IMG/VR virus record: IMGVR_UViG_3300031992_002320
Source of the DNA: an uncultured virus (IMG/VR IMGVR_UViG_3300031992_002320)
Taxonomy: Duplodnaviria > Heunggongvirae > Uroviricota > Caudoviricetes
Direction: 5' to 3' (one strand)
Length of the DNA stretch: 64,000 nucleotides
The notes below the pieces were generated by a model that saw nothing but the letters and a program-made list of their open reading frames with translations, searched no databases and had not been told where the DNA came from. Position numbers and translations under genes: made by a program. Shown one piece after another: positions 12,456 to 64,000 of the stretch (position 1 is its first letter; each line of letters starts with the position of its first letter).

Positions 12456-12499
12456 AAGACTCCCATTGTATTTTATGCAGTGGGAGTCTTTTTATTTTT
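12456..12499 (+). terminator. intrinsic terminator
   Basis: AAGACTCCCATTGTA...TGCAGTGGGAGTCTT followed by TTTATTTTT. Confidence 0.8.
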
Positions 12500-12511
12500 G
12501 GAGGTTTCTGT

Positions 12512-14647: not shown

Positions 14648-14676
14648 ACTTACATAGGTTTTATCTATTTTTCATT

Positions 14677-14712
14677 GGGCTCTTACTGGGTATTTACAGT
14701 AGGAGCCCTTTG
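14677..14712 (+). terminator. terminator-like hairpin
   Basis: GGGCTCTTACTG-GGTATTTA-CAGTAGGAGCCC followed by TTTGT. Confidence 0.65.
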
Positions 14713-14734
14713 TGTTTGTTTAGGAGGTTCATGT

Positions 14735-19218: not shown

Positions 19219-19230
19219 GAGGTAGGTGTA

Positions 19231-19608
19231 GTGTTTCAAGGGAATCAGCTTTGTATGATTTGTAAGGATCGTAAGAGGTCTCCGAAGTTGGATCAGCTTA
19301 GGAGTCTGGATGGTTATTTGCGTCGGGTTTTTAGTTGCACGACTGGTGTGATGAGTTTGGATTATCAGAATCTCTGCAGCCCTAATTGGGGTTTACATCA
19401 TAAGTGCAAGTCGGGTATGAGATGTCAGGATTTATCCAAGTTGGAGTCTGAGTGTAAGAGGTTAGCAACGGCCTTGGAGCCAAAGCTGGCACATATCGCA
19501 TTGTATGGGAACGATGCTTTGTACTGTGAGACGCTTCAGTATCTGCGTGGGTATTTCCCGGCTGTGTATAAGTGGATGGAGTTTGTGAGGTGCCGTGGGG
19601 CATATTAA
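19231..19608 (+). CDS. Cys-rich hypothetical protein
   Basis: GTG start after AGGAGG, 125 aa. Confidence 0.55.
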   Translation: MFQGNQLCMICKDRKRSPKLDQLRSLDGYLRRVFSCTTGVMSLDYQNLCSPNWGLHHKCKSGMRCQDLSKLESECKRLATALEPKLAHIALYGNDALYCETLQYLRGYFPAVYKWMEFVRCRGAY

Positions 19609-19626
19609 GGCTTAGGAGGTTTGGTT

Positions 19627-21444: not shown

Positions 21445-21475
21445 ATAGTTGTATGAGTTTTTTGGAGGTCAGGTT

Positions 21476-28644: not shown

Positions 28645-28659
28645 TCTTTGGAGGTTCTT

Positions 28660-31924: not shown

Positions 31925-31942
31925 TTGTGGAGGGTTGTCCGT

Positions 31943-33658: not shown

Positions 33659-33669
33659 TGGAGGCTTTT

Positions 33670-50956: not shown

Positions 50957-51007
50957 GGTAATCCTTGGGGGTGGGGTTCGTGAGGACTCACGGGCCTTAC
51001 CCTTTAA

Positions 51008-51090
51008 GGGGAACTGGCGGAATGGCAGACGCGGCAGACTCAAAATCTGCTACCCGAAAGGGTGTGAGGGTTCGAGTCCCTTGTTCCCCA
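51008..51090 (+). tRNA. tRNA-Leu(CAA)
   Basis: Acceptor stem GGGGAAC/GTTCCCC plus discriminator A. D arm GCGG-AATGGCAGA-CGC. Anticodon arm GCAGA-CTCAAAA-TCTGC. Long variable arm ACCC-GAAA-GGGT. T arm GAGGG-TTCGAGT-CCCTT. CCA is not encoded. Confidence 0.95.
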
Positions 51091-51134
51091 CTATCTTTTG
51101 TTTGAAGGCATTGACGATTTAGAGAGGTGTATGA

Positions 51135-52247
51135 ATGAAATATCATTTTTCTATCAGAGATTTTGGTGTTATAAGGTCAGCGGAGTTTAGATCCGATAAT
51201 GGTGTGCTGGTTCTCCACGGTGATAATGGTTCGGGGAAGACCACCGTATCGAGAGCGCTGGCCTGTTTATTTTCTGGGGTTGGTCGTAGGATCAGGACTG
51301 GTGCTTCGGATTTCCGTATTGCGTTTGCGGCGGATTTCGATGGTACTGGTGTGAAGACGGTTATCCGTACCTTTAGGACCTATAGTGTGTATGATGGGGA
51401 TGTTGTTGATGGTGTTCCCAAGGGTGTGCCGGCGATTATGACTTTCAATAAGGTGGGCAACACTCTCCCTACCGAGCTTCGTACCTTGTTCGGTTTTGCG
51501 GCGGATAGGGATCCCATCGATCCGATTCTCAAGACTATGCTTGGTTTCCGTTCTGATCTGGATCCGTTGGTATTCTCGCAGACGAGTGCGGGTGATAGTT
51601 ATAAGGTCTTGAGTCATGCGCTTGGTGTTGATGGGCTCAAGGATGCTTCTGCAGGTGGTGTGTTGGAGAGCACTCGAATCAATCGTAAGCTCTCATCTCT
51701 CAATGATGAGATTAAAGTTCTTGAGAGTCAGTTGGCAGAGCAGGACCGTATCCTTACGGATCTGGATAACTTTTCAAATAGCATTGATGGTAATCTCATT
51801 AATGTTGTGGGTGATCTGGAGTCGGCGTTGGCTGTTCTTCCTACGCTCAGTGTGGGTGTTGATGACATTCCGCAGGATGTGGATATGGGGCTCATTGGGG
51901 TTCTCAATTCCATCACGGATGGTATAAATCGTTTGACCGAGTTGGGTGGCAAGGATCTGGCGTTGGATGTGCCTGATGTGATTGATGCTTCGGTTGTATC
52001 TCTTGTTGAGAGCATCTCGGCAGGGCTTTCCAAGTTGAGTACCTATGGTGCTGTTGAGGATATCCCGGTATATGATGCACTTGCGGTTGGTGAGGCAATC
52101 TGCAATATGGGTGCTCTTTTGGAGGATTTCAAGACCAAGGTTGATGCTCTTGCGGAGACCGAGGAGAAGTTGAATGGTTTCAAGCAGGTGGCTGCATCAC
52201 AGGGCCTCAAGATGTGTCCGGTATGTTCAGCCGTTTATGTGGAGTAA
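51135..52247 (+). CDS. SbcC/Rad50-like ATPase, N-terminal half (Walker A, coiled coil, terminal CxxC)
   Basis: FSIRDFGVI, VLHGDNGSGKTT, coiled-coil segments. Ends ...KMCPVCSAVYVE. No Walker B. Confidence 0.8.
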   Translation: MKYHFSIRDFGVIRSAEFRSDNGVLVLHGDNGSGKTTVSRALACLFSGVGRRIRTGASDFRIAFAADFDGTGVKTVIRTFRTYSVYDGDVVDGVPKGVPAIMTFNKVGNTLPTELRTLFGFAADRDPIDPILKTMLGFRSDLDPLVFSQTSAGDSYKVLSHALGVDGLKDASAGGVLESTRINRKLSSLNDEIKVLESQLAEQDRILTDLDNFSNSIDGNLINVVGDLESALAVLPTLSVGVDDIPQDVDMGLIGVLNSITDGINRLTELGGKDLALDVPDVIDASVVSLVESISAGLSKLSTYGAVEDIPVYDALAVGEAICNMGALLEDFKTKVDALAETEEKLNGFKQVAASQGLKMCPVCSAVYVE

Positions 52248-52259
52248 TTGGAGGATTTT

Positions 52260-53222
52260 ATGAGGATTTTATCTATCGGTGATTTACATCTTATGGATCA
52301 CAACCGTGGTAAGCACGAGGATTATGCGAGGGAGTGTTTGTTCCATATGCATTCCATTCTGGTTACACTCGGTGAGCAGAAATTTGATCGTATCATTCTT
52401 CTTGGTGACTTTGCGGATTGTGTTTTCAAGGATTTATCCTTTAGGACTGGTGTTCAGTGTTTCTTGAATGGGCTTCGTGAGCATCTTGTGGATGGTGGTA
52501 AGCTCTATAGCCTCCGTGGTAATCACGATGTTCTTTCATCCGGTGAGTGGACTGAGCTTGATTTCGCAATTAACACTGGTTTGTTAGACAAGTGTCCGAT
52601 TGTGGAATCTGTGGGTTCTGTGTCTGTTGGGTATCAGGACTATGTATTTAGAGAGTCCCTTGATGCTTCGGTTAATCCGTTAGCTGGGTATGTTGGTTGT
52701 GAGGTGTTATTCACCCACAATGTGTATGGTGCCGAGGATGGTAACTTTTTTGGTGAGGGGTTCGGTGTTGGAAATCCCGCCCTTGATAGATTGGTTTATG
52801 TGGTTCAGGGGCATGACCATACGGAGTCTTATCGTCAGTTCGGTGTAGGTGGCCGCAATGTGTATGTACTTGATGGTGGTGCGGCCTGTCAGGTGAGTGT
52901 AAAGTATCGCGGAATTGAGAACTTTGGTCTTGTTGTCATCAGTGATGAGGGTGGGGCCTTATCGTATTCAACTCTGCGTGTTCCCTATTCGGGTACGTTT
53001 AGGGATGATGCCAAGGATGAGGTTGATACGGATTCCGTGGTAAGTGAGGTTTCTCTTGAGTGCTTGAGTGTTCTCGGTGGGGTTAGTTGCGAGATGAACT
53101 CCGAAGGTTTCCTTGAGTATCTCAACACGCTTTCCATTTCGGATGGTGTGAGGGCGCAGGTTCGAAGGTTAGTCGAGACCTATGCCAATGATGTTGGTGA
53201 CAATGTGGACACAGATATTTAA
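52260..53222 (+). CDS. sbcD: SbcD/Mre11-like metallophosphoesterase nuclease
   Basis: Motifs GDLH, LLGD, GNHD, THN and GHDH. Lies between the two SbcC halves. Confidence 0.85.
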   Translation: MRILSIGDLHLMDHNRGKHEDYARECLFHMHSILVTLGEQKFDRIILLGDFADCVFKDLSFRTGVQCFLNGLREHLVDGGKLYSLRGNHDVLSSGEWTELDFAINTGLLDKCPIVESVGSVSVGYQDYVFRESLDASVNPLAGYVGCEVLFTHNVYGAEDGNFFGEGFGVGNPALDRLVYVVQGHDHTESYRQFGVGGRNVYVLDGGAACQVSVKYRGIENFGLVVISDEGGALSYSTLRVPYSGTFRDDAKDEVDTDSVVSEVSLECLSVLGGVSCEMNSEGFLEYLNTLSISDGVRAQVRRLVETYANDVGDNVDTDI

Positions 53223-53241
53223 TTTTAAGGAGGATTACAAA

Positions 53242-54549
53242 ATGGTTCATGAGTTTTCTATGAAGCTGGGATTCAGTACGAAGCTTTTCGGTAAGTTACC
53301 GATAGCGCTCTGTCCTTGCAAGGATGGTGTTTGGGTGAAGGTGGCGAGAGCTGATATTCGTTCTTGCTGGCTTGTACCTTATGAGTCTCCGCTGGCGGTG
53401 GATGGTAAGGTTGTTGAGGATTTCGATAACTACACCACCAAGTTCTATCTCCATGAGGAGGTTGTGGCATCCATTCAGAGTGAGCGTTGGGCACCCAAGG
53501 AGGTTATCAATTTCAAGTTCACTACTGGGGAAGCGAAGGATCCCATCCTTGGGGAGATGGTAATTCATCACTACAAGGTTGTTGGTGGCAAGGATGTTTA
53601 CTATGGCCATACAACTCGTTGCTTCAAGTATGTTCCTACTCGTATGGATGAGATCACTGGTGCGGTAGCCATCGATGCTCCGAGTGGAGAGGGTGTAGAT
53701 ACTCATCCGGTTGACAGCAAGGAGTTCGGCAGACTTCTCGGTCTTAATATCCTTGATTCCGGTGTTATCGTTTCTGTTTCCGAGGCTAAGGAAGGCGAGG
53801 AGCCTACAGTTCTCTGCTACAGTGGTGGTAATGATCTTCTCACTATCGCGCCGGGGGTTAAGGGCTTTGATAAGTCGTTCTATCTCCGTTCCGATATGTG
53901 TAAGCTGATGGGTGCAATGCTCAAGCTCATGGTTATGGGTGTTGAGACTCAGCTCGGTGATTATGAGTCCGAGGATGGTGATGGCGCTGCCGAGGATCTT
54001 GAGGCGGTTATGACCTCCACAAGCAAGGTGCTCAGTTATGCTCTCCATCGTGAGGGTACGGGCCGTCAGAGATCTCTTTCCCTTTTCCTTGATGGTTTCA
54101 TCTTCACTTGTGTTGTTGAGCCGAAGAGAAGTATCGATGCAATCGGAACTCTCGGAGCTCTCAAGGATGTTCCGGTTCAGGATGCGGTACATACGAGAGG
54201 TGATGGATTTGCCAACGGTGGTAGCCGTGGTGGTCAGGTTCTTGGACTTTCCAAGGAGTCTGATGGATCTTATTCACTCTCTGTTGGTGAGGATAAGTTC
54301 ACCGTTTGGTCTTATGACGGAGATGGTGATAAGATCGCAGAGACCATTTGGGCTAAGGGTTATCTCGTAGATCGTGACCTCATCCGTTGTGTGGCTAAGG
54401 CTTCCAAGAATGCTGGTGGCATGGATCCCGATTCACTCGTTATGTATGTTGGTGATGTTGCCGACATGGGTGTTATCAAGGGTGTGCTCTGTATTCAGGG
54501 TGGCGGTGAAGGTGGATATACTTTCTACGTGCCTCTTACACAGGCTTAA
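53242..54549 (+). CDS. hypothetical protein (possible highly diverged sliding clamp)
   Basis: TAAGGAGG RBS, strong codon bias, acidic, alternating beta/alpha pattern. Function is speculative. Confidence 0.45.
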   Translation: MVHEFSMKLGFSTKLFGKLPIALCPCKDGVWVKVARADIRSCWLVPYESPLAVDGKVVEDFDNYTTKFYLHEEVVASIQSERWAPKEVINFKFTTGEAKDPILGEMVIHHYKVVGGKDVYYGHTTRCFKYVPTRMDEITGAVAIDAPSGEGVDTHPVDSKEFGRLLGLNILDSGVIVSVSEAKEGEEPTVLCYSGGNDLLTIAPGVKGFDKSFYLRSDMCKLMGAMLKLMVMGVETQLGDYESEDGDGAAEDLEAVMTSTSKVLSYALHREGTGRQRSLSLFLDGFIFTCVVEPKRSIDAIGTLGALKDVPVQDAVHTRGDGFANGGSRGGQVLGLSKESDGSYSLSVGEDKFTVWSYDGDGDKIAETIWAKGYLVDRDLIRCVAKASKNAGGMDPDSLVMYVGDVADMGVIKGVLCIQGGGEGGYTFYVPLTQA

Positions 54550-54573
54550 TTAAAACGATTTGGAGGATTTATC

Positions 54574-55191
54574 ATGGGTTTATTAGAGAGTTACGCTGAG
54601 TTGAACAATCGAATGATTACTTGTAGGGCACAGCACGAGGGTGTTAAACGCACCCTTGGGGCTGGGCTCAAGGCCAAGACTGATGAGAAGGCTTCCCTTG
54701 AGGCTGACCTTACCGATATCGCTGGTGCGCGTGAGGTAATTGATCAATACTGTCTCGCTCGACTTAAGCCGGCGGAGGATGCCATTCACAATGCGGTTTC
54801 CGAGGCTCTTGCCTATATGGGTGGTCGTGGATTATCCTTTGTTCTTGAGGAGTTTCAGCAGGCCAAGTCTGGTCGTCAGTTGCGTGTGGCGTTCAAGGAT
54901 GGTGAGGAGATTCGTTCCTTGCGTCAGGACTGTGGTCGTGGTGATAGGGAGTTAGTATCACTCATAATGACATGTATACTTCTTCTGGCGGGTGGATCTG
55001 GAAAGGTTCTTTTGTTGGATGAGGTTGTGTCGGGTGTTTCGAAGCGTAATCAGGCCATCGTTGATAAATTACTCAGTTATATGGAGTCGCAGGGATTTCT
55101 CATTGTTTTGACCGAGCATGGTTATACTCCTACTTGTGAGGGTATGAGTTCGTATGTTATGCATAACGGGACATGTTCTGTTGAAGAGTGA
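54574..55191 (+). CDS. SbcC/Rad50-like ATPase, C-terminal half
   Basis: N-terminal coiled coil, variant signature DCGRGDRELVSL, Walker B/D-loop LLLDEVVSGV, H-loop VLTEH. Confidence 0.8.
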   Translation: MGLLESYAELNNRMITCRAQHEGVKRTLGAGLKAKTDEKASLEADLTDIAGAREVIDQYCLARLKPAEDAIHNAVSEALAYMGGRGLSFVLEEFQQAKSGRQLRVAFKDGEEIRSLRQDCGRGDRELVSLIMTCILLLAGGSGKVLLLDEVVSGVSKRNQAIVDKLLSYMESQGFLIVLTEHGYTPTCEGMSSYVMHNGTCSVEE

Positions 55192-57394: not shown

Positions 57395-57437
57395 CCCCCG
57401 ATTGAGTCTCCGATTGACTCAGTTGGGGGTTCTTTTT
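57395..57437 (+). terminator. intrinsic terminator
   Basis: CCCCCGATTGAGTC-TCCGATT-GACTCAGTTGGGGG followed by TTCTTTTT. Confidence 0.8.
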
Positions 57438-57495
57438 ATGTTCCGTTCCGATGGGTTTTCTTTTTGGGTATTCTTTTTGTGTGGGAGGTGGTTAT

Positions 57496-58188
57496 ATGAC
57501 TGGTAAAACTCATAAGCGTTGGGGTGTATGCGGTGTTTATATTGTTTTCGCATTACTCCTTTGGTTTGGATTTGGATTCGTGGATTTCGGTCTGGGGTAT
57601 GGTGGTGTTCGTGGAGCCTTGGTGGGTGTTCTGCATTTGGCCTTGATGGTTTGTGCGAGTCATGTTGGTTCTGTGTTCCCGGATTACGATCATGATAAGT
57701 CCTCGATTTCCGAATATACTCTTGTGGCGGCTGTGGTTTCAAACTTATGTAAGTTATTCCATGATGGGCATCGTTCAAGGCTTACTCACAGTTGGGACAT
57801 CAGCTTGTTGTTCTGTGGTGGCACTTTCGTCTGTGCCTATTTCTTGACTAATGGTTTTACGGAGTATGCCCCGGAGTTGTGGATTGTTGCTCTCGGTGGG
57901 TTTTGGATTGGGTATCTCTGGCATCTTCTCATGGATATGATGAATGGTGTTGGGGTTTATTTCTCGGTTTTCTCGAAGCATAAGGTGGCGTTTGTACCGC
58001 GTAAGTTCTTTGGTCTTAAGTTTGTGACTGGTGGAGCATGGGAGGAGTTTTGTTATAAGGTTGGCCGTGTTATCGATGTTATTGGTCTGTGGGCTTGTTT
58101 GTTCTTGATTATCTACAGAGCCCATTTGATGCCTTGGGAGCTTGGTCAGTACATTGGAACTATTGATTTGGGGAGGTTTGGGCATTGA
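57496..58188 (+). CDS. membrane-bound metal-dependent hydrolase (YdjM-like)
   Basis: MTGKTH, GSVFPDYDH, HRSRLTHS, GYLWHLLMDMMNGVGV, with multiple TM segments. Confidence 0.85.
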   Translation: MTGKTHKRWGVCGVYIVFALLLWFGFGFVDFGLGYGGVRGALVGVLHLALMVCASHVGSVFPDYDHDKSSISEYTLVAAVVSNLCKLFHDGHRSRLTHSWDISLLFCGGTFVCAYFLTNGFTEYAPELWIVALGGFWIGYLWHLLMDMMNGVGVYFSVFSKHKVAFVPRKFFGLKFVTGGAWEEFCYKVGRVIDVIGLWACLFLIIYRAHLMPWELGQYIGTIDLGRFGH

Positions 58189-58442
58189 TAGTTTTATGTG
58201 TTTATGTGCATGCTGGTAATAATGGTTTCCGTAAGGATATTCGTGTGTCCGAGGCGGAGCGTATAGATGTTTTTCTGCGTAGGTTCTCGGAGTGGCTTTC
58301 TGGGCAGGAGGGTTTTTCCAATGTGGGGGATTCTTCTATGGCTTGGTTCGAGAACCCTTTGTATCGTGTGATCGTCAGTGATGTGTATACCTTTGGTGAT
58401 ATTGGTGTTCATAATGGCTCTGTGTTGCATATTAAGTATTAG
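58185..58442 (+). CDS. YukD/EsaB-like ubiquitin-fold T7SS accessory protein
   Basis: 85 aa. KDIRVS...TFGDIGVHNGSVLHI fits the YukD pattern. Directly upstream of essC. Confidence 0.6.
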   Translation: MIVLCVYVHAGNNGFRKDIRVSEAERIDVFLRRFSEWLSGQEGFSNVGDSSMAWFENPLYRVIVSDVYTFGDIGVHNGSVLHIKY

Positions 58443-58459
58443 GATTTTGAGGTGTTGGG

Positions 58460-61400
58460 ATGCGTTTATTTGTTTATTCGGTTGATGGTAAGAGATGTAT
58501 TGGTACGGGTGATGTAGACCCGGAGGCTGTTCATAGTGCTGGTGCCGGGCATGCGGCAGATTTACACTTTGATTTGGGGGAGGTACCTTTTAGTTGGCAT
58601 TTCTCTTTTGATGTTAATGCTCATACCCTTACCATTCCGTCTGGCTTTGGGGTTTGTGTGGTTGCGGATGGTGGTAATCGTGGTTCGGTTATCACGGGTT
58701 CTACATCGTTGGATGTTGGGGCCATTTATGAGCTTTGTAGAGTGGATATGCGAGGTGGCATTATTGGTAGTGTCATTCGCTTTTTGTTTTTCAGTGGTGA
58801 TGTTGGGGTTTCCGATTTCAGTTATGGATATGATGTTGGGGAGTCTGGATTCACTTTTGGTGCCAAGAGTTTCAATGGTGCCGCTCAGTTGAAGTTGCCT
58901 TTTGATGGTGTTTGGCATGGTGTGGTCAAGGTTGTCAAGAAGAATGGTGTGTGCCGTGCTGGTTTGAATGTAACGGGGGATGTTGGTGTTTTGATCAATG
59001 GTGTACCCGTGGTTCTTGCTGGTGCTGTTGCCTTACACGACCTTGATAGGGTTGATGTTGGTGGATTCAGTTTCATATATCGTAGTGGATCCGTGATTGT
59101 GAGTGAGAGATATGTGGATTTGATTCAGCAGCACGGTTTCCGTGTTTCATATAGGGTGACTCCTACCATTCCCGGTGTTGTGTGTGATTATTCTGCGGAT
59201 GATTCTGTGTTATCCTTTAATCCGCCTTCAGCACCGCCCGAGGAGAAGCCGGGGAATCTTATTATGACCTTGTTGCCGGCTGTGGCTGGTTTGGCTTTGA
59301 TGGTTGTTGTCCGTGGTTTTATGAATAAGACGGGCAATATGACAATGCTCATATACAGTGGTGGTATGATGGTCATGGGCCTTGGTACATCCGTTGCGAA
59401 GTTTATCATGGACAGGAAGAAGGCGAAGAAGGATGCCACCCATCGTGTGGAGAGTTACATATCTTATCTTGGGGCGGTGGAGAATGATATTAAGACCTAT
59501 CGTGAGCAGGAGCTTCGTACCTTATCTGCTGGGCATCCGATGCTCAGTGAGTTGATTCAGGGAGTTTGTAGTGGTAACAGTTCGAGGTTGTTCTTGGGGC
59601 ATTGTGGGCCTGATGGTTTCGATGTGGTTATGTCGAGGGGTGATTACATTTCCCCCAATCGTGTCAAATGTGATGAGCTGCGTGAGGCGGTTATCACTTG
59701 GGGGCATGATGATGAGTTGTGTGCTAAGGCGCAGGAGCTCATTGACAGGGAGGGTATGATTCCTAATGCTCCATTGGTGATGAAGCTCTCTTGGGCTGTT
59801 ACTGGTGTTGTTGGTGAGGTTGAGAGTCGTGTTGATGCTTTCAAGCGTATCCTTTGTTATTTGGCAATGAGGATTGCCCCTACGGATTCTGTGAGGTATT
59901 GGTTATTCTTATCCGAGGATGTTGTGGCTGCCCATCCGGAGTTGCGTGAGTTCCGTTGGTTGTCGCAGGTCAGCGCTGGTGGTATCTATTGTGGAGCTGC
60001 TGAGATTAGTAGGGGTTTGATTAACTTTGAGACGGTTGTTGGGGATCCTTCGGTTGAGGATGTTTGTTTTGTCTGGGACTGCAATGACATTTTGAGTTCT
60101 GGGCTTTTCGATATTTTGTGGGAGCGTGGTGAGTTGTCTTGTTCTGCAGATAGGATGGCGAGTATGCACTTGTCCGTGGTCACCTTTGGTGGTGCGCTCG
60201 CGGATATTCCTTGTGGGGCAAGGTTCATCCTTGATGGAGATACTTATTATGCCCGTGATTGTGTTCGCAGTAGTGTGAGTGGTGTCCGTGAGACCGATCT
60301 TGGTGTGTTCAGAAGTGATTTCACTCGTTTCATTCAGATTCTGTTGGCCTATACCGTGCCCGTCAGAGTTACACAGACAGGTTCTTTGAATACCAATCTC
60401 ACTTATTATGAGTTGCGTGGTGTGTTTGATGCCCATGATGTTGATGTTCGTCAGTTGTGGGATAAGGGGCGTGCTACGGTTACGAAGACCATGGCCATAC
60501 CTGTTGGTTTGGATTCTATGGGTGGTGTTGTAACCTTGGATATCTCCGATAAGGGTGCAGGACCTCACGGTTTGGTTGCCGGTACTACTGGATCTGGTAA
60601 GTCAGAGTTCGTGTTGAGTGTTCTTTTGGGGCTTCTTCTTCAGTATTCTCCGCTTGAGCTTGGGCTCATCGTGGTTGACTTTAAGGGTGGTGGTATGTCT
60701 GCCAGACTTCGTGGTTTTCCCCATCTGTTGGGTGAGCTTACGAACCTCGATGGTAGGATGATTGCAAGAGCTCAGGAGATGCTTGGTGCGGAGCTTAAGC
60801 GTAGAGAGCGTTTGTTGATGGAGGCTGGTGTTTCGGATATCCACGGATATCTTGCCAAGGGGCTTCAGATGCGTGGTGCTGACTATGCGATGGGGCATCT
60901 CTTGATTGTTGTTGATGAGTTTGCGGAGCTTAAGTCGGAGTGTCCCGACTTTATGGATTACATCGTGTCTGTTGCGCGTGTAGGTCGTACTCTTGGTTTC
61001 CATCTGATTCTTTCTACGCAGAGACCGAGTGGAGTCATGACTGGTCAGATAGCGTCGAATGTTACTTATACAGCTTGTTTGAAGGTTGTTTCCGAGGCGG
61101 ATTCGAGAGAGATTATTGGTTCGGATGTAGCAGCATCTTTGAAAACTCCCGGTACTGTATACCTTCGTGAGGGTTCTGGGCCTTGTAGATTATTCCAATC
61201 TGGTTATACAGGTGCGGATGCTTCGAGGGCTTCCGTTGTGGGTGACTATGATGTTGATGTCCGTGAGGGTAGTTCCTTTGTTCGTTTGTGGAGGGCTGCG
61301 GAGTCTGTGAGTTCGGGTGTCACACAGTTGGATGCCCTTGCTGGGTATGTGCATGAGGTTTATGAGACCTCCAAGGAGGCACAGATAGGTGTTCGTGGGG

Positions 61401-62929
61401 TTCTGTTACCTCAGTTGCCGGATGCAATTCCTTATGGGGCATCGGAGTATGGTTCAGAGCGTACCAAGGTGGGCACTGGTAATCTCGATGTGGTGCATGT
61501 GGGTTACTTTGATGCGCCGGGAGAGTGTATGCAGGGTGCTGTGGATCTGGATATCTGCAATCACACTCTTATGCTTGGGCCGGCGGGTTGTGGTAATACA
61601 ACTTTCTTACTTTCTATGGCTGCGTGGTGGTTGTTGCATGGTAGAGGGTATGGACTTGGTGTTATAGATTGTGGTGTTGGATCATTCGGAGGGTTCAGAG
61701 GTAAACTCGGAGTGTTTGATGTTCTGACAGCCGGTGAGGGTGGTCGTGATGATATAACCTTTGCCAATGCTCTATCAGATTTGGTTGATAGTCGTAGGGC
61801 ACAGTTGCGTAGTGGTGGTTATTCGGACTACTTGGCCTTTAATAAGCAGTCGGGTGAGGTAATGGCACCCATCCTTTTGTTGGTGGATGGCATAGAACTT
61901 GTCAGTGAAACTTTCCCGGTGGTTGTGGATGCACTCAACAGTGTTCTTCGTTACGGTCGTACCTTGGGTATATTCGTTATTGCAACTGCTCATGGGCTTA
62001 GAGGGCTTACGAGTATGCAGAAGGGTAGCTTTGGGGTACGTGGGCTCTATACATGTATTGACTCATCGTTCTATGGGGAATGGATGTTGTTGGCCAAGGG
62101 ATGTTATCTGCCGGTTCGCCCCGGTGCGGTTCGTTTTGTAGATACATCGGGTGCTGTTGTGGATTGTCAGTTGTCGTTGTGTGAAGGTTTGGCAGTGGGA
62201 GATGATCTCCGTGGGCATCTGTCATCCCTTTTGGATAGTTATACAGGTGTTGGTCAGATTCATGTTCCGATGGTTGATCATGTTCCCGATGTTCTGTATT
62301 TGGATACTCTCCGAGGCAAGTTGGATGCTGGTAAGCTATTACTTGGTCAATATTTGGAGGGTGGTAGCTTGATGTATTATAGAGATGGGGCATTGGGAGG
62401 AGTATTGTGCCTTGTCGGTGCGCCGGTGGCATTTGTGGCCGCCCTTGTTCAGCAGATGTCTGGTATGAGGGATGCGCATATGTATCTTGCAACTGATGTT
62501 TTGTCCGAGTGTGGTGCTTTGTTGGGTGGTCTTGGTGACCGTCTGCACAGTGAGGATCCTCTATCGCCGGGTAAGGCTGCGGTGGTGGATGATTTCATCT
62601 CGGATGATTTGTCGGGTGCCCGTGTATGTTTGTTGGATAAGTCGGTGCTTGCATCGTTTGAGGATTTGAAGGGGCTTGAGAAGGCTGTCAAGGCTGGTGG
62701 GATGCTCATCTTGTTGTCGAATGACACGAGGCCGAGTGGTGGAGTTTCCACATTTTTGCGTGCCGTGGGTGATAGTGTATTTTATATATCATTTGCGGAT
62801 CCTTATCGTCAGTTGTTTATTCAGGGATTCACGCCTCGCAAGGTTGGATTTGTTGCTGGTGATTGTTTCGCTTGGTATGACGGTTGCTTTGACTTGTTGA
62901 GATGTGTATCGTTGGACGTAGCAGGATAG
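58460..62929 (+). CDS. essC: EssC/YukB-like type VII secretion FtsK/SpoIIIE ATPase
   Basis: Beta-rich FHA-like N-terminus, PPSAPP, two TM helices. D1: LDISDKGAGPHGLVAGTTGSGKSE, VDFKGG, IVVDEFAELK, RVGRTLGFHLILSTQRPSGV. D2 and D3 are degenerate. Confidence 0.92.
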   Translation: MRLFVYSVDGKRCIGTGDVDPEAVHSAGAGHAADLHFDLGEVPFSWHFSFDVNAHTLTIPSGFGVCVVADGGNRGSVITGSTSLDVGAIYELCRVDMRGGIIGSVIRFLFFSGDVGVSDFSYGYDVGESGFTFGAKSFNGAAQLKLPFDGVWHGVVKVVKKNGVCRAGLNVTGDVGVLINGVPVVLAGAVALHDLDRVDVGGFSFIYRSGSVIVSERYVDLIQQHGFRVSYRVTPTIPGVVCDYSADDSVLSFNPPSAPPEEKPGNLIMTLLPAVAGLALMVVVRGFMNKTGNMTMLIYSGGMMVMGLGTSVAKFIMDRKKAKKDATHRVESYISYLGAVENDIKTYREQELRTLSAGHPMLSELIQGVCSGNSSRLFLGHCGPDGFDVVMSRGDYISPNRVKCDELREAVITWGHDDELCAKAQELIDREGMIPNAPLVMKLSWAVTGVVGEVESRVDAFKRILCYLAMRIAPTDSVRYWLFLSEDVVAAHPELREFRWLSQVSAGGIYCGAAEISRGLINFETVVGDPSVEDVCFVWDCNDILSSGLFDILWERGELSCSADRMASMHLSVVTFGGALADIPCGARFILDGDTYYARDCVRSSVSGVRETDLGVFRSDFTRFIQILLAYTVPVRVTQTGSLNTNLTYYELRGVFDAHDVDVRQLWDKGRATVTKTMAIPVGLDSMGGVVTLDISDKGAGPHGLVAGTTGSGKSEFVLSVLLGLLLQYSPLELGLIVVDFKGGGMSARLRGFPHLLGELTNLDGRMIARAQEMLGAELKRRERLLMEAGVSDIHGYLAKGLQMRGADYAMGHLLIVVDEFAELKSECPDFMDYIVSVARVGRTLGFHLILSTQRPSGVMTGQIASNVTYTACLKVVSEADSREIIGSDVAASLKTPGTVYLREGSGPCRLFQSGYTGADASRASVVGDYDVDVREGSSFVRLWRAAESVSSGVTQLDALAGYVHEVYETSKEAQIGVRGVLLPQLPDAIPYGASEYGSERTKVGTGNLDVVHVGYFDAPGECMQGAVDLDICNHTLMLGPAGCGNTTFLLSMAAWWLLHGRGYGLGVIDCGVGSFGGFRGKLGVFDVLTAGEGGRDDITFANALSDLVDSRRAQLRSGGYSDYLAFNKQSGEVMAPILLLVDGIELVSETFPVVVDALNSVLRYGRTLGIFVIATAHGLRGLTSMQKGSFGVRGLYTCIDSSFYGEWMLLAKGCYLPVRPGAVRFVDTSGAVVDCQLSLCEGLAVGDDLRGHLSSLLDSYTGVGQIHVPMVDHVPDVLYLDTLRGKLDAGKLLLGQYLEGGSLMYYRDGALGGVLCLVGAPVAFVAALVQQMSGMRDAHMYLATDVLSECGALLGGLGDRLHSEDPLSPGKAAVVDDFISDDLSGARVCLLDKSVLASFEDLKGLEKAVKAGGMLILLSNDTRPSGGVSTFLRAVGDSVFYISFADPYRQLFIQGFTPRKVGFVAGDCFAWYDGCFDLLRCVSLDVAG

Positions 62930-62941
62930 GAGGTTTGTTAT

Positions 62942-63235
62942 ATGCTGAATACGAATGAGATTGCAGCGGCCTTCACCGCCATCTACGATTTTGTGCAGTA
63001 TCAGATGTCCATTGTCAATACATTATCTGCGGATTGTAAGTTTCTCGATGGTAATGCTTGGCTTGGAGATGCTGCGAATGTAGGGTGTGGTGTTATGGAG
63101 AGTTATGTAACCACTGGTTTACAGCTCGCCAATGATGTTGAGGAGTTTTATAATGAGTTGCAGGATGATTATGCGGCTTATCAGGAGAAGGATGATGAGA
63201 TTGCGCAGGCGTTTTCGAGTGAGGAGGGTGGCTGA
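62942..63235 (+). CDS. WXG100-family protein
   Basis: 97 aa helical protein with a central W-L-G (NAWLGDAA) and C-terminal YxxxD (YQEKD). Directly after essC. Confidence 0.75.
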   Translation: MLNTNEIAAAFTAIYDFVQYQMSIVNTLSADCKFLDGNAWLGDAANVGCGVMESYVTTGLQLANDVEEFYNELQDDYAAYQEKDDEIAQAFSSEEGG

Positions 63236-63237
63236 TT

Positions 63238-63681
63238 ATGACGAGTGGTGAGTGGTATGCTAAAGCCCGTGCCTTGCGTGCGGAGGCTGCCGAGCATGAT
63301 GCCTTGGCCGCCAAGTATGGGGCTGCTGCGGATGCTTTTGGTGTTGCGGCGAATGCGCTGGATGATTGTCATTGGAATGTGGAGCCGATGACTCATAGTG
63401 AGTATATTGAGGTGGCGTTGCCGGAGCAGCATCGTGAGGCTTTTACGGATGCGGTTGGTTCTCTGTTGACCTCAATTGATACTTCGCAGACGAATTTAAA
63501 TTCTGCCAAGACGCAGGCGCTTGCTTCTAAAAAGTCACATGAGGATACGGCGGCTGATTTGCGTAGGCAGGCGGATGATGCTGACCGTGAGGGTGATGCA
63601 GAGGCAGAGCGTGAGCGTGAGCGTGAACGCGAGCGTGAGAGGGAGCGTGAGGCTGCGGCATCTTCTGGTTCAGGTAGTTGA
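63238..63681 (+). CDS. small helical protein, candidate T7SS partner/substrate
   Basis: 147 aa Ala-rich helical protein with an (ER)n tail, in the same operon as the WXG100 gene. Confidence 0.6.
   Translation: MTSGEWYAKARALRAEAAEHDALAAKYGAAADAFGVAANALDDCHWNVEPMTHSEYIEVALPEQHREAFTDAVGSLLTSIDTSQTNLNSAKTQALASKKSHEDTAADLRRQADDADREGDAEAEREREREREREREREAAASSGSGS
63607..63651 (+). repeat. GAGCGT hexamer microsatellite encoding (ER)n
   Basis: gagcgtgagcgtgagcgtgaacgcgagcgtgagagggagcgtgag. Confidence 0.8.
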
Positions 63682-63699
63682 TAAGGAGGACAGGGTTCA

Positions 63700-64000
63700 A
63701 TGGCAAAGTGGCGTTGTTTTGAATATAGTTTCGATTCCCTATCTTCGGATAACGATATCTTTCGTAACACGGTTGTAGGGGATTTGTCCACGGCTGTTTC
63801 ACAGCAGTTTGATAATCCGAGTGAGTTTGCTGATGTCTGGAATGAGTTCTTGAACACTTATGGTAAGTGTGATAGGTTCTCATCCAACTTTCAATTTTAT
63901 TGTTCGGAGGTAGCTACTACACAGCAGGAGGACGAGACCGTGATCATGGCCAAGTTCACGGATCTTATGAATAACATGGAGGCCATTGTTGGGTTTACCA
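63700..64000 (+). CDS. protein truncated by window end; candidate T7SS effector N-terminus
   Basis: TAAGGAGG RBS, then an ATG at 63700 open to the window end: MAKWRCFEYSFDSLSSDNDIFRNTVVGDL...MNNMEAIVGFT. Not in the supplied ORF track. Confidence 0.7.
   Translation, partial: MAKWRCFEYSFDSLSSDNDIFRNTVVGDLSTAVSQQFDNPSEFADVWNEFLNTYGKCDRFSSNFQFYCSEVATTQQEDETVIMAKFTDLMNNMEAIVGFT

What the first reader, a model, noticed from the sequence alone, without database searches (positions are those of the whole stretch)
57496..64000. Compact type VII secretion module embedded in a phage-like replicon
Seen: one co-oriented, tightly packed operon of YdjM-like hydrolase, YukD/EsaB-like gene, EssC, WXG100, a small helical protein and a longer ORF running off the window. 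It directly follows a phage-type replication block (PolA without 5' exonuclease, TOPRIM primase, SbcCD, RecJ). Its G/T-biased codon style and apparent CCWGG avoidance match the rest of the window, suggesting long residence. Established: T7SSb (EsxA, EsaA, EssA, EsaB, EssB, EssC) is normally a chromosomal Bacillota antagonism system. Inference: a large phage or extrachromosomal element encodes its own T7SS ATPase and substrates. These could arm the host against competitors, redirect the host T7SS by supplying an alternative EssC, or export element proteins.
Basis: partly seen in the sequence, partly recalled or inferred. Interest (0 to 1): 0.9.

Follow-up and report, generated by a model that had tools for sequence, protein, structure and literature searches.

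The report
Type VII secretion cassette on phage-like element
A roughly 175-kb circular, probably viral DNA element from ruminant gut bacteria carries its own stripped-down, highly diverged protein-export (type VII secretion) gene set that is conserved and apparently in use, which shows that such export systems travel on large mobile elements.

Summary
At 57.4-64.0 kb there is a tightly packed, co-oriented operon. It encodes a YdjM-like membrane protein, an 85-aa ubiquitin-fold (YukD/EsaB-like) protein, a 1489-aa EssC-like ATPase, a 97-aa WXG-type protein, a 147-aa helical protein and a 480-aa membrane protein. Beyond the window the operon continues with a 117-aa and a 382-aa protein, two clear WXG100 proteins and a 131-aa protein.

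From YukD onward the gene order matches a type VII locus common in gut Clostridia (T7SSe/f/j-like), but those loci's upstream partners are missing, as are the T7SSb proteins EssB, EsaA and EssA. All cassette genes are under purifying selection. Codon usage matches the host element. Independent ruminant-gut assemblies carry the cassette, and so do RNA libraries.

The replicon is a discrete, circularly permuted element of about 175-182 kb with a tmRNA, tRNAs and its own replication genes. It is not a chromosome and not a chimera. No virion gene was found in the 74 kb I could read, so "phage" remains probable but unproven.

There are precedents: essC on Bacillota plasmids, and a T7SS-like cassette in a deposited Ruminococcus phage genome. 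I rate it a new variant of a known kind, of moderate to high interest.

The parts
57395..57429 (+). Terminator-like hairpin between the RecJ stop codon and the first cassette gene. It marks the start of a separate transcription unit.
   Evidence: L001 8936-8970 (window = L001 + 48459), 14-bp stem with 8 GC pairs, followed by TTCTTTTTAT. It is the strongest site of the scan, although the total number of sites (16) is not above shuffles (mean 15.6). The stem is intact in the sibling L002, with one change in the loop.
57451..58188 (+). YdjM-like polytopic membrane protein (putative metal-dependent hydrolase family). Its stop codon overlaps the start of the next gene by 4 nt. The true start is probably Met16 at 57496.
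   Evidence: Pfam PF04307, E 9.8e-11, 41.9 bits against cutoff 29. At least 3 hydrophobic segments. dN/dS 0.08 against the sibling. tblastn found no counterpart beside any of the 80 bacterial EssC loci.
58185..58442 (+). 85-aa ubiquitin-fold protein, the YukD/EsaB (TsxB) analogue.
   Evidence: Same size and position as the small gene directly upstream of EssC in 40 of 41 bacterial loci. 39 of 39 of those tested match Pfam YukD. hhalign against that profile: probability 57.6%, E 1e-4, 71 columns. It shares both invariant columns, P58 and G78. AlphaFold model: pLDDT 75.6, beta-grasp. VIA-align Z 9.9-10.9 to ubiquitin-like domains, and the EccD1 Ubl domain is at Foldseek rank 10. 100% amino-acid identity with the sibling at dS 0.20.
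58460..62929 (+). EssC-like membrane ATPase, 1489 aa. It has an all-beta (FHA-like) N-terminal region, a TM segment at 264-289, an intact D1 P-loop domain, a D2 domain with GCGNTT in place of GKT, and a diverged, shortened D3/C-terminus.
   Evidence: TIGR03928 E 4.4e-140. PF01580 E 1.1e-26. Motifs. TM segment. N-terminal model: pLDDT 57.9, top Foldseek hit the EssC FHA structure 5fwh at E 8e-3. dN/dS 0.04. Nearest relatives are 26-35% identical over long matches, all from Clostridia or other Bacillota.
62942..63235 (+). 97-aa acidic helical protein with a WLG motif. It is the positional equivalent of the WXG100 gene that follows EssC in the bacterial loci.
   Evidence: TIGR03930 E 0.027, below threshold. 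hhalign against the EssC-adjacent WXG100 family A5: probability 79.5%, E 1.5e-5, with WLG aligned on the invariant W and G. dN/dS 0.07.
63238..63681 (+). 147-aa alanine-rich helical protein with a C-terminal (ER)n repeat. No family assigned. Possibly a targeting partner or chaperone.
   Evidence: No significant family. No match to the bacterial positional family A6. dN/dS 0.08.
63700..64000 (+). First 100 codons of a 480-aa protein (L001 15241-16683) with a helical N-terminal domain, a hydrophobic Ala/Gly-rich cluster at residues 125-183 and 234-255, and an orphan C-terminal part. It is a putative secreted, membrane-active substrate. The operon continues beyond the window (L001 coordinates): 117 aa at 16702-17055, 382 aa at 17065-18213, WXG100 at 18210-18530, WXG100 at 18635-18931, 131 aa at 18979-19374.
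   Evidence: hhalign against the conserved 500-560-aa membrane protein of the bacterial loci (A3): probability 77%, E 2e-5, 54 columns covering the W-x-x-x-G-G motif and TM1. phmmer against 1.84 billion representatives found only a fragment of the protein itself. It evolves faster than its neighbours, dN/dS 0.21. The two downstream WXG100 genes pass the Pfam gathering score: 38.1 and 31.2 bits against 27.3.

Best explanation
This is a functional, reduced and highly diverged type VII protein-secretion cassette. It has resided for a long time on a discrete, circular (or circularly permuted) extrachromosomal element of about 175-182 kb from ruminant-gut Clostridia. That element is most likely a large phage (my odds about 0.55-0.6).

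Shown: the operon encodes a YukD-type ubiquitin-fold protein, an EssC-type membrane ATPase with an intact D1 motor domain, three WXG-type small helical proteins, a membrane-active 480-aa protein, and accessory proteins. From YukD onward the order is the same as in Clostridial T7SSe/f/j-like loci. All genes are under purifying selection, and the cassette is fully assimilated to the element's composition.

Inferred mechanism: EssC multimerises in the host membrane, probably together with the co-translated YdjM-like membrane protein and the YukD-like protein. Using D1 ATP hydrolysis, it exports the two canonical WXG100 proteins and the 480-aa protein. I read the 480-aa protein as an LXG-like effector that is escorted by the 97-aa and 147-aa helical proteins encoded just upstream of it. 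The diverged D3/C-terminus of EssC would tie the motor to these element-specific substrates.

The element lacks the DUF6382-FHA protein, the ParA/TadZ-like ATPase, and the kinase and phosphatase of the bacterial loci. So either it borrows these from a host T7SS or it runs without that regulatory layer. The likely benefit is antagonism of competitors or exclusion of rival elements while the element is carried.
For: Identity of the parts.

Synteny with bacterial loci: 40 of 41 loci have a 74-92-aa gene directly upstream of a roughly 1500-aa EssC. The three loci annotated in full (L004, L013, L051) show the order YukD, EssC, WXG100, a protein of about 70-155 aa, a membrane protein of about 500-560 aa and further WXG100 genes. 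L004 and L013 also have the TPR protein followed by two WXG100 genes. These families recur in 14-17 further loci.

Function retained: dN/dS is 0.00-0.08 for 9 cassette genes and 0.21-0.26 for the 480-aa and 131-aa genes, at dS 0.08-0.26. D1 Walker A and B motifs are invariant.

Long residence: RSCU r = 0.966 with the rest of the window against 0.21 with bacterial EssC genes, and 0 CCWGG sites.

Conservation in nature: single contigs from two other studies span the cassette at about 96% identity (X6 record 25, 8914-19499; X3 record 23, 12526-19499). 24 run rows from 15 studies hold at least part of it, one study being the possible source.

RNA libraries (one sample, two runs) hold contigs with 0-1 mismatches along the cassette, with uneven depth: 2-11 over EssC to the 382-aa gene, 41-54 over the WXG100 pair and the 131-aa gene, and 85 over the tmRNA. 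The DNA runs are flat at 8-15.

Discrete replicon: contigs of 175,375 and 178,235 bp place EssC at 123.7 kb and at 34.5 kb from their starts, which indicates circular permutation. A third contig of 181,887 bp holds the same protein cluster. No close copy exists in 185,579 species genomes; the best match is 46% identity on a short fragment.

Phage-like traits: a tmRNA and tRNAs for Leu, Gly and Thr; PolA, primase, RecJ, an SbcCD-like pair, an RNase T-type exonuclease and a cell-wall hydrolase; every called gene on one strand across 74 kb.
Against: Pfam, PHROGs (E up to 1) and NCBIfam found no terminase, portal, capsid or tail gene in the 74 kb read. The element and its EssC are absent from the held IMG/VR collection. 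About 100 kb of the contig could not be read.

The EssC score is below NCBIfam's equivalog cutoff.

The YukD, WXG-97, 480-aa and TPR assignments rest on weak profile matches: probabilities 58%, 79%, 77% and 23%. The 147-aa protein matches nothing.

The two AlphaFold models used alignments made of the family being tested, which biases them toward that fold. The FHA result is weak: pLDDT 57.9, all E above 1e-3.

The D2 Walker lysine is lost and D3 is truncated, so the motor could be impaired.

RNA evidence comes from assembled contigs of one sample. DNA carry-over cannot be excluded, and contig depths are poor measures of expression.

The host is unknown; the tmRNA gave no host signal.
Confidence: 0.6

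Rival explanations
1. The same cassette, but the replicon is a megaplasmid or another non-viral extrachromosomal element of a ruminant-gut Clostridium, not a phage. The T7SS cassette is then ordinary plasmid cargo for interbacterial competition.
For: No virion hallmark in 74 kb. Absent from the held IMG/VR set. essC is annotated on Bacillota plasmids, including a 252-kb Agathobacter rectalis plasmid that is the best plasmid hit at 29.4% identity. PolA relatives are equally distant in phages and plasmids, about 24%.
Against: No partition, relaxase or T4SS genes in 74 kb. A tmRNA plus three kinds of tRNA gene, strict one-strand gene orientation, and PHROG matches for RecJ (8e-97), an AAA ATPase (1e-39), a nuclease (9e-40) and an endolysin-like hydrolase fit a large phage better. 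That large phages carry tmRNAs is recalled, not checked here.
Confidence: 0.3
2. The cassette is a self-sufficient minimal T7SS that a lytic or chronic large phage uses for its own cycle, independent of any host T7SS. It might insert the 480-aa membrane protein and release WXG100 proteins to exclude superinfecting phages, to time lysis or to kill bystander bacteria. The YdjM-like protein would replace the missing membrane partners.
For: The YdjM-like gene is translationally coupled to the YukD-like gene and is as constrained as EssC. It is unique to the element. None of the bacterial partner genes is present in the 58 kb upstream or 10 kb downstream. Very simple T7SS variants with components A1, A2, B, C and one extra protein are described (T7SSg; PMC11217815 section 12).
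Against: No direct evidence for a lytic cycle or for any of the proposed roles. The rest of the contig could hold partner genes. EssC D2 and D3 are degenerate.
Confidence: 0.15
3. The EssC-like protein is not a protein-secretion motor here but an FtsK/SpoIIIE-type DNA translocase (element transfer or packaging) or part of an anti-phage defence system. The small helical genes would be unrelated.
For: Generic FtsK-domain matches to PHROG 'FtsK/SpoIIIE-like' (3e-59), weakly to a terminase PHROG (2e-8), and to the PADLOC models mad8 (1e-26) and SspH (2e-23).
Against: The EssC model scores far higher, 468 bits against 71 bits for FtsK (cutoff 1566). The three-P-loop architecture, the all-beta N-terminus with EssC FHA as the top structural hit, the YukD-like gene upstream and three WXG-type genes downstream all reproduce T7SS loci.
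Confidence: 0.04
4. The region is an ordinary chromosomal island, or an assembly chimera joined near 57.4 kb.
For: None found beyond the terminator-like hairpin at the boundary.
Against: Composition, codon usage and CCWGG avoidance are continuous across the boundary. Two independent assemblies are collinear. A contig from another study bridges the junction (X3 record 18, L001 8644-9189). Contigs of equal size are circularly permuted. There is no close match in species genomes.
Confidence: 0.02

Closest known systems
Clostridial variant type VII systems (T7SSe, T7SSf, T7SSj of Garrett, Higginson and Palmer 2024, PMC11217815; sections 9-14 read)
   Same: TsxB (YukD-like) lies directly upstream of a TsxC of about 1500 aa with an all-beta N-terminus. 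WXG100 genes are present. From YukD onward the gene order matches the closest bacterial loci. The EssC relatives are all Clostridia or other Bacillota.
   Different: It lacks the DUF6382-FHA protein (TsxJ), the ParA/TadZ-like ATPase (TsfV), the PPM phosphatase and the kinase in the 74 kb read. It has a YdjM-like membrane protein instead. EssC is only 26-35% identical and sits on a stem of 2.2 substitutions per site. The D2 Walker lysine is lost and D3 is shortened. It resides on an extrachromosomal element. I did not read the paper's supplementary accession lists, so I cannot assign a subtype letter.
T7SSb (Ess/Yuk) of Staphylococcus aureus and Bacillus subtilis
   Same: An EssC-type ATPase, with the top NCBIfam model T7_EssCb_Firm; an EsaB/YukD-type ubiquitin-fold protein; WXG100 substrates. 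The layout of small helical proteins followed by a large protein with a helical N-terminus resembles Lap-LXG toxin modules (only the significance statement of PMC10801868 was seen, in the listing).
   Different: No EssB/YukC, EsaA/YueB or EssA detected. The EssC score is below the equivalog cutoff. No LXG domain hit on the 480-aa protein.
T7SS-like cassette of Ruminococcus phage NatCom_2329 (PV036414.1, Ca. Heliusvirales, 71.5 kb)
   Same: A mobile viral genome of gut Clostridia that carries an FtsK/EssC-like ATPase flanked by WXG100 genes and a TPR protein. The record has terminase, head protease, tape measure, holin, endolysin and excisionase. Its ATPase groups with the element's EssC in the tree, though with a long-branch warning.
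   Different: Its ATPase is split (1124 + 573 aa). A Ser/Thr kinase is present. No YukD-like or YdjM-like gene was identified. The genome is a small temperate phage. The grouping is not robust. The Heliusvirales paper (PMC11283538) contains none of the terms 'type VII', T7SS, WXG100, FtsK, 'secretion system' or ESAT-6.
Plasmid-borne T7SS: ESX loci on mycobacterial plasmids (cited in PMC11217815, Discussion) and essC on Bacillota plasmids
   Same: A T7SS motor and substrates carried by an extrachromosomal replicon (passage).
   Different: Those are complete or near-complete T7SSa or T7SSb sets on plasmids. This one is a reduced variant on a tmRNA- and tRNA-bearing, phage-like element.
essC-variant modules, where the EssC C-terminus plus downstream genes determine substrate specificity (PMC5994694; abstract start only, seen in the listings)
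   Same: A diverged EssC C-terminal region is linked to its own set of downstream substrate genes.
   Different: Here the whole EssC, not just its 3' part, is element-encoded, and it is only about 28% identical to any bacterial EssC.

Membership tests
EssC/TsxC type VII secretion ATPase | Three tandem FtsK/SpoIIIE-type P-loop domains behind a membrane anchor | tested here: met
   TIGR03928 E 4.4e-140, aligned over residues 640-1207. D1 Walker A and B intact; D2 Walker A is GCGNTT; D3 is degenerate, as it is in most relatives. TM segment at 264-289. The score is below the equivalog cutoff (468 against 778 bits).
EssC/TsxC type VII secretion ATPase | N-terminal FHA-type beta-sandwich domains (EssC type, as opposed to EccC type) | tested here: inconclusive
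   No Pfam FHA hit. hhalign against bacterial N-termini: probability 19%. The AlphaFold model is all-beta with pLDDT 57.9, and residues 140-215 score 69-93. The Foldseek top hit is the EssC FHA structure 5fwh, with 1wv3 at rank 5 and 9qks_H at rank 7, but all E are above 1e-3 and TM is 0.26 or less.
YukD/EsaB (TsxB) | Ubiquitin-like beta-grasp protein of about 80 aa encoded beside the ATPase | tested here: met
   Position and size match 40 of 41 bacterial loci. Model: pLDDT 75.6; Z 9.9-10.9, rmsd 1.6-2.7 A over 70-80 residues to ubiquitin-like domains. Caveat: the alignment given to AlphaFold consisted of YukD proteins.
YukD/EsaB (TsxB) | Sequence match to the YukD family model | tested here: inconclusive
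   No direct PF08817 hit. hhalign against a 39-member YukD alignment: probability 57.6%, E 1e-4. It shares both invariant columns.
WXG100 | Helical hairpin of about 100 aa matching PF06013 above the gathering score | tested here: met
   L001 18210-18530 scores 38.1 bits and L001 18635-18931 scores 31.2 bits, against a cutoff of 27.3. The 97-aa gene inside the window does not pass (TIGR03930 E 0.027), but it has WLG and an hhalign probability of 79.5%.
T7SSb (Ess/Yuk) system | EssB/YukC pseudokinase, EsaA/YueB and EssA membrane components | tested here: not met
   None detected among the window proteins scanned or the 12 downstream proteins by Pfam. NCBIfam scans of the six in-window cassette proteins and of 39 unannotated proteins, three of them from the downstream operon, found none either. 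The unread ~100 kb of the contig could not be tested.
Clostridial variant T7SS (e/f/j-like) | TsxJ (DUF6382 + FHA), a ParA/TadZ-like ATPase, and a PPM phosphatase or kinase next to TsxB-TsxC | tested here: not met
   Present in L004, L013 and L051. Absent from the 58 kb upstream and 10 kb downstream of the element's EssC.
Clostridial variant T7SS (e/f/j-like) | Gene order downstream of TsxC: WXG100, small protein, membrane protein of about 500 aa, ..., TPR protein, WXG100, WXG100 | tested here: met
   The same order and similar sizes in the element. Profile support is 79.5% for the WXG gene, 77% for the membrane protein, only 23% for the TPR protein and none for the small protein.
Tailed phage (Caudoviricetes) | Terminase large subunit, portal and major capsid protein | tested here: inconclusive
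   Not found in 74 kb by Pfam, PHROGs (E up to 1) or NCBIfam. About 25 large ORFs there match nothing. The other ~100 kb could not be fetched.
FtsK/SpoIIIE DNA translocase | Full-length match to FtsK, including the C-terminal gamma (DNA-recognition) domain | tested here: not met
   NF007615 scores 71 bits against a cutoff of 1566, over the ATPase core only. No Ftsk_gamma hit appears in the Pfam scan.

The most novel reading that the evidence does not exclude
A large phage of ruminant-gut Clostridia runs its own minimal type VII secretion machine, made of EssC, a YukD-like protein and a YdjM-like membrane partner, with no host T7SS parts. During infection or carriage it exports an orphan membrane-active protein and a WXG100 pair, to kill competitors of its host or to shut out rival phages. 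This would be the first virus-encoded, self-sufficient T7SS.
Probability: 0.15. Interest if true: 0.85.

Novelty: new variant of a known kind. Interest (0 to 1): 0.6.

Why it matters
Type VII secretion is studied as a chromosomal weapon and virulence system of Gram-positive bacteria. This cassette shows a working-looking motor, its ubiquitin-like partner and its own substrates kept under selection for a long time on a large mobile, probably viral, replicon that is widespread in ruminant guts.

If the element is a phage, it extends the list of host-arming functions that phages carry to an entire export pathway.

It also offers a naturally pared-down system: a motor, a YukD-like protein and one unrelated membrane protein. 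That makes it useful for asking which parts of a T7SS are truly needed.

The 480-aa protein has no detectable relative among 1.84 billion representative proteins, so it is a candidate for a new effector type.

Together with the overlooked cassette in a deposited Ruminococcus phage genome, this suggests that T7SS-like modules in gut phages have gone unnoticed.

Tried and rejected
1. Reading the rest of the contig. About 100 kb stays unread.

2. Cluster look-up of the closest EssC clusters: the service was switched off.

3. IMG/VR relatives through the window's last 60 bases, EssC, an EssC profile and RecJ. The results were none, none, one weak FtsK-like hit and none.

4. Megablast of 20 kb against deposited phages: no match.

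5. PolA tblastn: about 24% identity in both phages and plasmids, so not informative.

6. 'UNVERIFIED Bacteriophage sp.' faecal contigs that gave the best RecJ hits (41%) and the best phage-database EssC hit (29%). Each of the 4 fetched shares only that one gene with the element and has different composition, so they are not relatives.

7. AAA ATPase tblastn: scattered small phages at about 30% identity, not informative.

8. Motif scan for RNA polymerase beta-prime or terminase-type P-loops in the unknown ORFs: nothing.

9. ESM Atlas. For the 480-aa protein there were only sub-threshold leads (PT-TG at 0.85, a Tle1-like C-terminal family at 0.84), and the Atlas model has pLDDT 0.45. For the 680-aa ORF there was nothing.

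10. Host clue from the tmRNA. Only the universal 3' end matched, in 16 of 399 Clostridia-class genomes and 1 of 5 locus genomes.

12. IQ-TREE runs did not finish in time, so I used FastTree instead. The element's placement is unresolved once the Ruminococcus phage row is removed: support 40.

13. Promoter scan: the counts are not above shuffles.

14. RNA contigs leave parts of the cassette uncovered, for example L001 9335-10268. Gaps in contig cover prove nothing.

15. Solved YukD or EsaB structures are not among the 50 rows shown for the 85-aa model. The rows are tied within about 1 Z unit, so this is not evidence against.

16. Literature. The searches found no paper describing a phage-encoded T7SS apparatus. 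A coral-virome paper lists an essC virulence-database hit on a Clostridia-assigned viral contig (PMC13649929, passages). Zhang et al. 2012 (PMC3482391, passages) mention 'mobile versions of T7SS' only for Gram-negative lineages in which only the middle P-loop is active, a different type.

17. My dN/dS script mis-registered two genes, YdjM and the 455-aa ORF. I recomputed YdjM with fixed coordinates and dropped the 455-aa ORF.

Full report
THE OBSERVATION

- 57451-58188, 245 aa. It is probably the true start, because the Pfam match begins at residue 16 and the sibling element differs mostly in the first few residues.
- 58185-58442, 85 aa, overlapping the previous stop codon by 4 nt.
- 58460-62929, 1489 aa.
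- 62942-63235, 97 aa.
- 63238-63681, 147 aa.
- An ORF from 63700 that runs off the window.

The first ORF matches Pfam YdjM above its gathering score (E 9.8e-11). The large ORF matches NCBIfam's Firmicute EssC model at E 4.4e-140, although its 468 bits fall below the equivalog cutoff of 778.

The upstream block is as described: a family A polymerase with a weak 3'-5' exonuclease match and no 5'-3' exonuclease domain, a Toprim primase piece, SbcC-like and SbcD-like proteins, and RecJ.

G+T richness is uniform over the whole window, with GC skew from +0.13 to +0.41. CCWGG is completely absent: 0 sites in 64 kb against 84 CCSGG sites.

WHAT LIES BEYOND THE WINDOW

A metagenome scan with EssC found the source contig (L001, 175,375 bp; the window is its positions 65,285-129,284) and a sibling at 98% EssC identity from another assembly (L002, 178,235 bp).

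In L001 the open ORF is a 480-aa protein. It is followed by genes for 117 aa, 382 aa, 106 aa, 98 aa and 131 aa. The spacings are 18, 9, -4, 104 and 47 nt. The 106-aa and 98-aa proteins pass the Pfam WXG100 gathering score (38.1 and 31.2 bits against 27.3).

After that come a tmRNA (Rfam 110 bits), an HD-domain protein, an RNase T-type exonuclease, an HTH protein, and tRNA-Gly and tRNA-Thr genes. A tRNA-Leu gene lies inside the window at 51008-51091.

THE SMALL GENES AND THE SYNTENY

A scan of one genome per species found 582 EssC relatives. The best 80 are from Clostridia and a few other Bacillota, at 26-46% identity on the best segment.

I examined 42 of these loci and could delimit a full-length EssC ORF in 41. 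In 40 of the 41, a gene of 74-92 aa sits directly upstream of an EssC of about 1500 aa. I gave 39 of those small genes to Pfam, dropping one 74-aa ORF and three second, more distal ORFs. All 39 match YukD.

The element's 85-aa protein has no direct Pfam hit. The evidence that it is nevertheless YukD-like:
- It aligns to that YukD profile at hhalign probability 57.6%, E 1e-4.
- It shares both invariant columns of the family.
- It folds as a beta-grasp, pLDDT 75.6.
- The model matches ubiquitin-like domains at Z 9.9-10.9, and the ubiquitin-like domain of the mycobacterial T7SS protein EccD1 is at Foldseek rank 10.

The alignment given to AlphaFold was built from YukD proteins, so the fold result is not independent of the hypothesis.

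Full Pfam annotation of three bacterial loci (L004, L013, L051) shows a recurring order: kinase and/or PP2C phosphatase, DUF6382+FHA, a ParA/AAA_31-type ATPase, YukD, EssC with FHA, WXG100, a protein of about 70-155 aa, a membrane protein of about 500-560 aa, a protein of about 210 aa, and further WXG100 genes. In L004 and L013 a TPR protein of about 440 aa precedes the last two WXG100 genes; L051 has no TPR protein. This corresponds to the Clostridial variants T7SSe/f/j described by Garrett et al. 2024 (PMC11217815, sections 9-14 read).

From YukD onward the element has the same order and similar sizes. Profile comparisons with families collected from 5-17 loci gave the following support:
- 97-aa protein against the EssC-adjacent WXG100 family: 79.5%, with its WLG on the invariant W and G.
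- 480-aa protein against the membrane protein: 77%, over the W-x-x-x-G-G motif and the first TM helix.
- 382-aa protein against the TPR family: only 23%.
- 147-aa protein: no match.

None of the upstream partners of the bacterial loci, and none of EssB, EsaA or EssA of T7SSb, was detected in the 58 kb upstream or the 10 kb downstream. The YdjM-like gene has no counterpart beside any of the 80 bacterial loci.

THE EssC ITSELF

Aligned with its 12 closest homologues, the D1 Walker A and B motifs are invariant. D2 reads GPAGCGNT where all 12 relatives have GKT. The D3/C-terminal region lacks about 54 residues that 11 of the 12 relatives retain.

The N-terminus is poorly alignable (hhalign probability 19%). 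It models as two all-beta blocks (pLDDT 57.9; residues 140-215 score 69-93). The best Foldseek hit is the solved EssC FHA domain 5fwh, with S. aureus EssC (1wv3) at rank 5 and the B. subtilis T7SSb core unit at rank 7. All of these are weak: E above 1e-3 and TM 0.26 or less.

Outside its own cluster, the closest proteins among 5.8 billion cluster representatives are about 29% identical.

In a FastTree phylogeny of 44 rows the element sits on a stem of 2.2 substitutions per site. It is joined to the ATPase of a Ruminococcus phage and lies beside a well-supported clade of 30 Clostridial EssC proteins. The program flags that join as possible long-branch attraction. With the phage row removed, the element's placement has support of only 40. 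So the EssC belongs among Bacillota EssC proteins and not with EccC, but its exact origin is unresolved.

IS THE CASSETTE ALIVE AND AT HOME?

Between L001 and L002 (dS 0.08-0.26), dN/dS values are:
- 0.00 for the YukD-like gene
- 0.04 for EssC
- 0.04-0.08 for the 97-, 147-, 117-, 382-, 106- and 98-aa genes
- 0.08 for the YdjM-like gene
- 0.05 for RecJ, for comparison
- 0.21 for the 480-aa gene, 0.26 for the 131-aa gene and 0.34 for the 80-aa membrane gene

That contrast is what one expects of a machine plus a faster-evolving effector and immunity set.

The cassette's codon usage correlates at r = 0.966 with the rest of the window and at 0.21 with six bacterial EssC genes. Third codon positions are 46% T, 31% G and only 8% A. 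The cassette has no CCWGG site, whereas the bacterial loci carry 1.14 per kb.

A strong terminator-like hairpin (window 57395-57429) lies between RecJ and the cassette, and its stem is intact in the sibling.

OCCURRENCE AND RNA

24 run rows from 15 studies hold at least part of the cassette, and where an organism is labelled it is nearly always a ruminant-gut metagenome. Two rows may be the source itself.

I laid four runs on L001 7000-21000:
- Two DNA runs from other studies carry the cassette on single contigs at about 96% identity. X6 record 25 spans 8914-19499 and X3 record 23 spans 12526-19499.
- X3 record 18 bridges the RecJ-cassette junction.
- Two RNA libraries, both from one sample, hold contigs with 0-1 mismatches along the cassette. 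Their depth is uneven: 2-11 over EssC to the 382-aa gene, 41-54 over the WXG100 pair and the 131-aa gene, and 85 over the tmRNA. DNA depth is flat at 8-15.

This hints at transcription. However, these are assembled contigs, DNA carry-over cannot be excluded, and contig depth is a poor measure of expression.

WHAT IS THE REPLICON?

Evidence that it is a discrete element and not a chromosome:
- The two contigs have nearly equal length but place EssC 123.7 kb and 34.5 kb from their starts. That fits a circular or circularly permuted genome of about 175-180 kb.
- The EssC cluster is also recorded on a contig of 181,887 bp.
- No close copy exists in 185,579 species genomes.

Evidence pointing to a large phage:
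- Every gene called across the 74 kb is on one strand.
- The element has a tmRNA, three kinds of tRNA gene, its own polymerase, primase and recombination nucleases, and a SleB-type cell-wall hydrolase with a weak endolysin PHROG match.
- No partition, relaxase or T4SS genes were seen.

That large phages carry tmRNAs is my recollection, not something checked here.

Evidence against calling it a phage:
- No terminase, portal, capsid or tail protein was detected, even at relaxed thresholds.
- About 25 large ORFs at 12-39 kb, several in tandem paralogue pairs, match nothing.
- The element is absent from the held IMG/VR collection.
- The remaining ~100 kb could not be read.

I put phage at about 0.55-0.6, a plasmid or other element at about 0.3, and a chromosome or chimera at about 0.02.

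PRECEDENTS

- essC is annotated on plasmids of Agathobacter rectalis (252 kb; the best plasmid hit, 29.4% identity over 58% of the query), Limosilactobacillus fermentum and Bacillus mycoides.
- One of the closest bacterial loci (L004) is flanked by an integrase, a TraG/VirD4 coupling protein and ArdA. Another (L051) is flanked by a serine recombinase.
- Ruminococcus phage NatCom_2329 is a complete 71.5-kb genome with terminase, head protease, tape measure, holin, endolysin and excisionase. At one end it carries a TPR protein, a WXG100 protein, a split FtsK/EssC-like ATPase, a WXG100-like protein and a Ser/Thr kinase.
- The paper describing that phage order contains none of the terms 'type VII', T7SS, WXG100, FtsK, 'secretion system' or ESAT-6 (PMC11283538, term search only).
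- My literature searches found no description of a phage-encoded T7SS apparatus. The only item is an essC virulence-database hit listed for a Clostridia-assigned viral contig (PMC13649929, passages).
- Garrett et al. note plasmid-borne ESX-4 paralogues and say it is unclear whether other variants are plasmid-borne (passage).

HOW IT MOST LIKELY WORKS

Shown: the parts list, their order, their conservation, and their residence on the element.

Inferred:
- EssC multimers in the host membrane, with the YukD-like protein and probably the translationally coupled YdjM-like membrane protein, use D1 ATP hydrolysis to export the WXG100 pair and the 480-aa protein.
- The 480-aa protein has a helical N-terminus and an Ala/Gly-rich hydrophobic cluster at residues 125-183 and 234-255.
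- Of its 14 bacterial positional orthologues, 2 give weak WXG100 hits and 1 gives a weak SseC translocon hit.
- It evolves faster than the machine genes.
- It has no detectable relative among 1.84 billion representatives.

I therefore read the 480-aa protein as an LXG-like, membrane-acting effector escorted by the two small helical proteins encoded before it. The 117-, 131- or 80-aa proteins are candidate immunity or accessory factors.

The altered D3 of EssC would match the motor to these substrates. This follows the idea that the EssC C-terminus sets substrate specificity (PMC5994694; I saw only the start of its abstract, in the search listings).

Whether the system needs host partners or is self-sufficient is open. 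A planned complex prediction could not be run.

VERDICT

This is a real, conserved, long-resident type VII-type export cassette on a large extrachromosomal, probably viral, element. It is a reduced Clostridial-variant cassette rather than T7SSb. Phage identity is unproven, and mobile T7SS cassettes have precedents in plasmids and in at least one deposited phage genome. I class it as a new variant of a known kind, interest 0.6.

I did not read the supplementary accession lists of PMC11217815. They could allow a firm subtype assignment.

Noticed in passing
window 1-64000; C5 methyltransferase at 11051-11926; McrB-like ORF at 1-573: CCWGG is entirely absent (0 sites against 84 CCSGG; also 0 in L001 and 2 in the sibling L002). 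The element encodes a C5 cytosine methyltransferase (PF00145, E 1.3e-35). At the window's start it encodes the C-terminal part of an McrB-like subunit of a 5-methylcytosine-dependent restriction enzyme (NF008457, E 1.8e-37). The three features may be linked, for example through avoidance of Dcm-type methylation that would expose the DNA to type IV restriction.
   Followed up: partly
window 1-64000 and L001 1-24467: Extreme strand asymmetry. GC skew runs from +0.13 to +0.41 and AT skew from -0.15 to -0.36 along the whole window. Third codon positions are 46% T, 31% G, 13% C and only 8% A. Every called gene lies on the + strand.
   Followed up: partly
L001 19475-19870 (equivalent to window coordinate 67934 onward, beyond the window): An element-encoded tmRNA (Rfam 110 bits; tag ANNDYAMVA, or ANRDYAMAA in the sibling). 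In two ~96%-identical relatives from other studies, its central 336 nt are replaced by 333 unrelated letters while the flanks are kept.
   Followed up: partly
window 12512-34959: A block of large ORFs (405-793 aa) with no family match contains tandem paralogues: 12512-14647 with 14675-17056; 19621-21444 with 21449-23164; and a duplicated two-gene unit, 28648-30441 plus 30438-31655 matching 31925-33658 plus 33655-34959 (26-39% identity).
   Followed up: no
window 49790-50956: A 388-aa protein with a long (A/V)QPV repeat tail. The 2-kb bin from 50001 to 52000, which holds most of this gene, has the highest GC (0.509) and the lowest GC skew (0.127) of the window.
   Followed up: no
L004 1826-9236 and L051 19205-20617: Two of the closest bacterial T7SS loci lie next to mobility genes. 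L004 has ArdA, a TraG/VirD4-type coupling protein and a tyrosine integrase directly upstream. L051 has a large serine recombinase downstream. This suggests that these Clostridial T7SS loci are themselves often carried by integrative elements.
   Followed up: no
L003 (PV036414.1 54405-71545, reverse complement) 1842-13242: Ruminococcus phage NatCom_2329 and three sibling records carry a T7SS-like cassette: TPR protein, WXG100, a split FtsK/EssC-like ATPase of 1124 + 573 aa, a WXG100-like protein and a Ser/Thr kinase. It is annotated only as 'FtsK/SpoIIIE-like' and hypothetical proteins.
   Followed up: partly
window 51135-55191: The SbcC-like ATPase seems to be split. The N-terminal P-loop part is at 51135-52247 (AAA_23) and a C-terminal ABC-signature part is at 54574-55191 (weak BtuD-type match). 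The SbcD-like phosphoesterase (52248-53222) and an unknown 455-aa ORF lie between them.
   Followed up: no
L088-L091 (GenBank 'UNVERIFIED: Bacteriophage sp.' faecal contigs): These records give the best phage-database hits to the element's RecJ and EssC, but each shares only that single gene and has a different composition. They may be bacterial fragments rather than phage DNA.
   Followed up: partly
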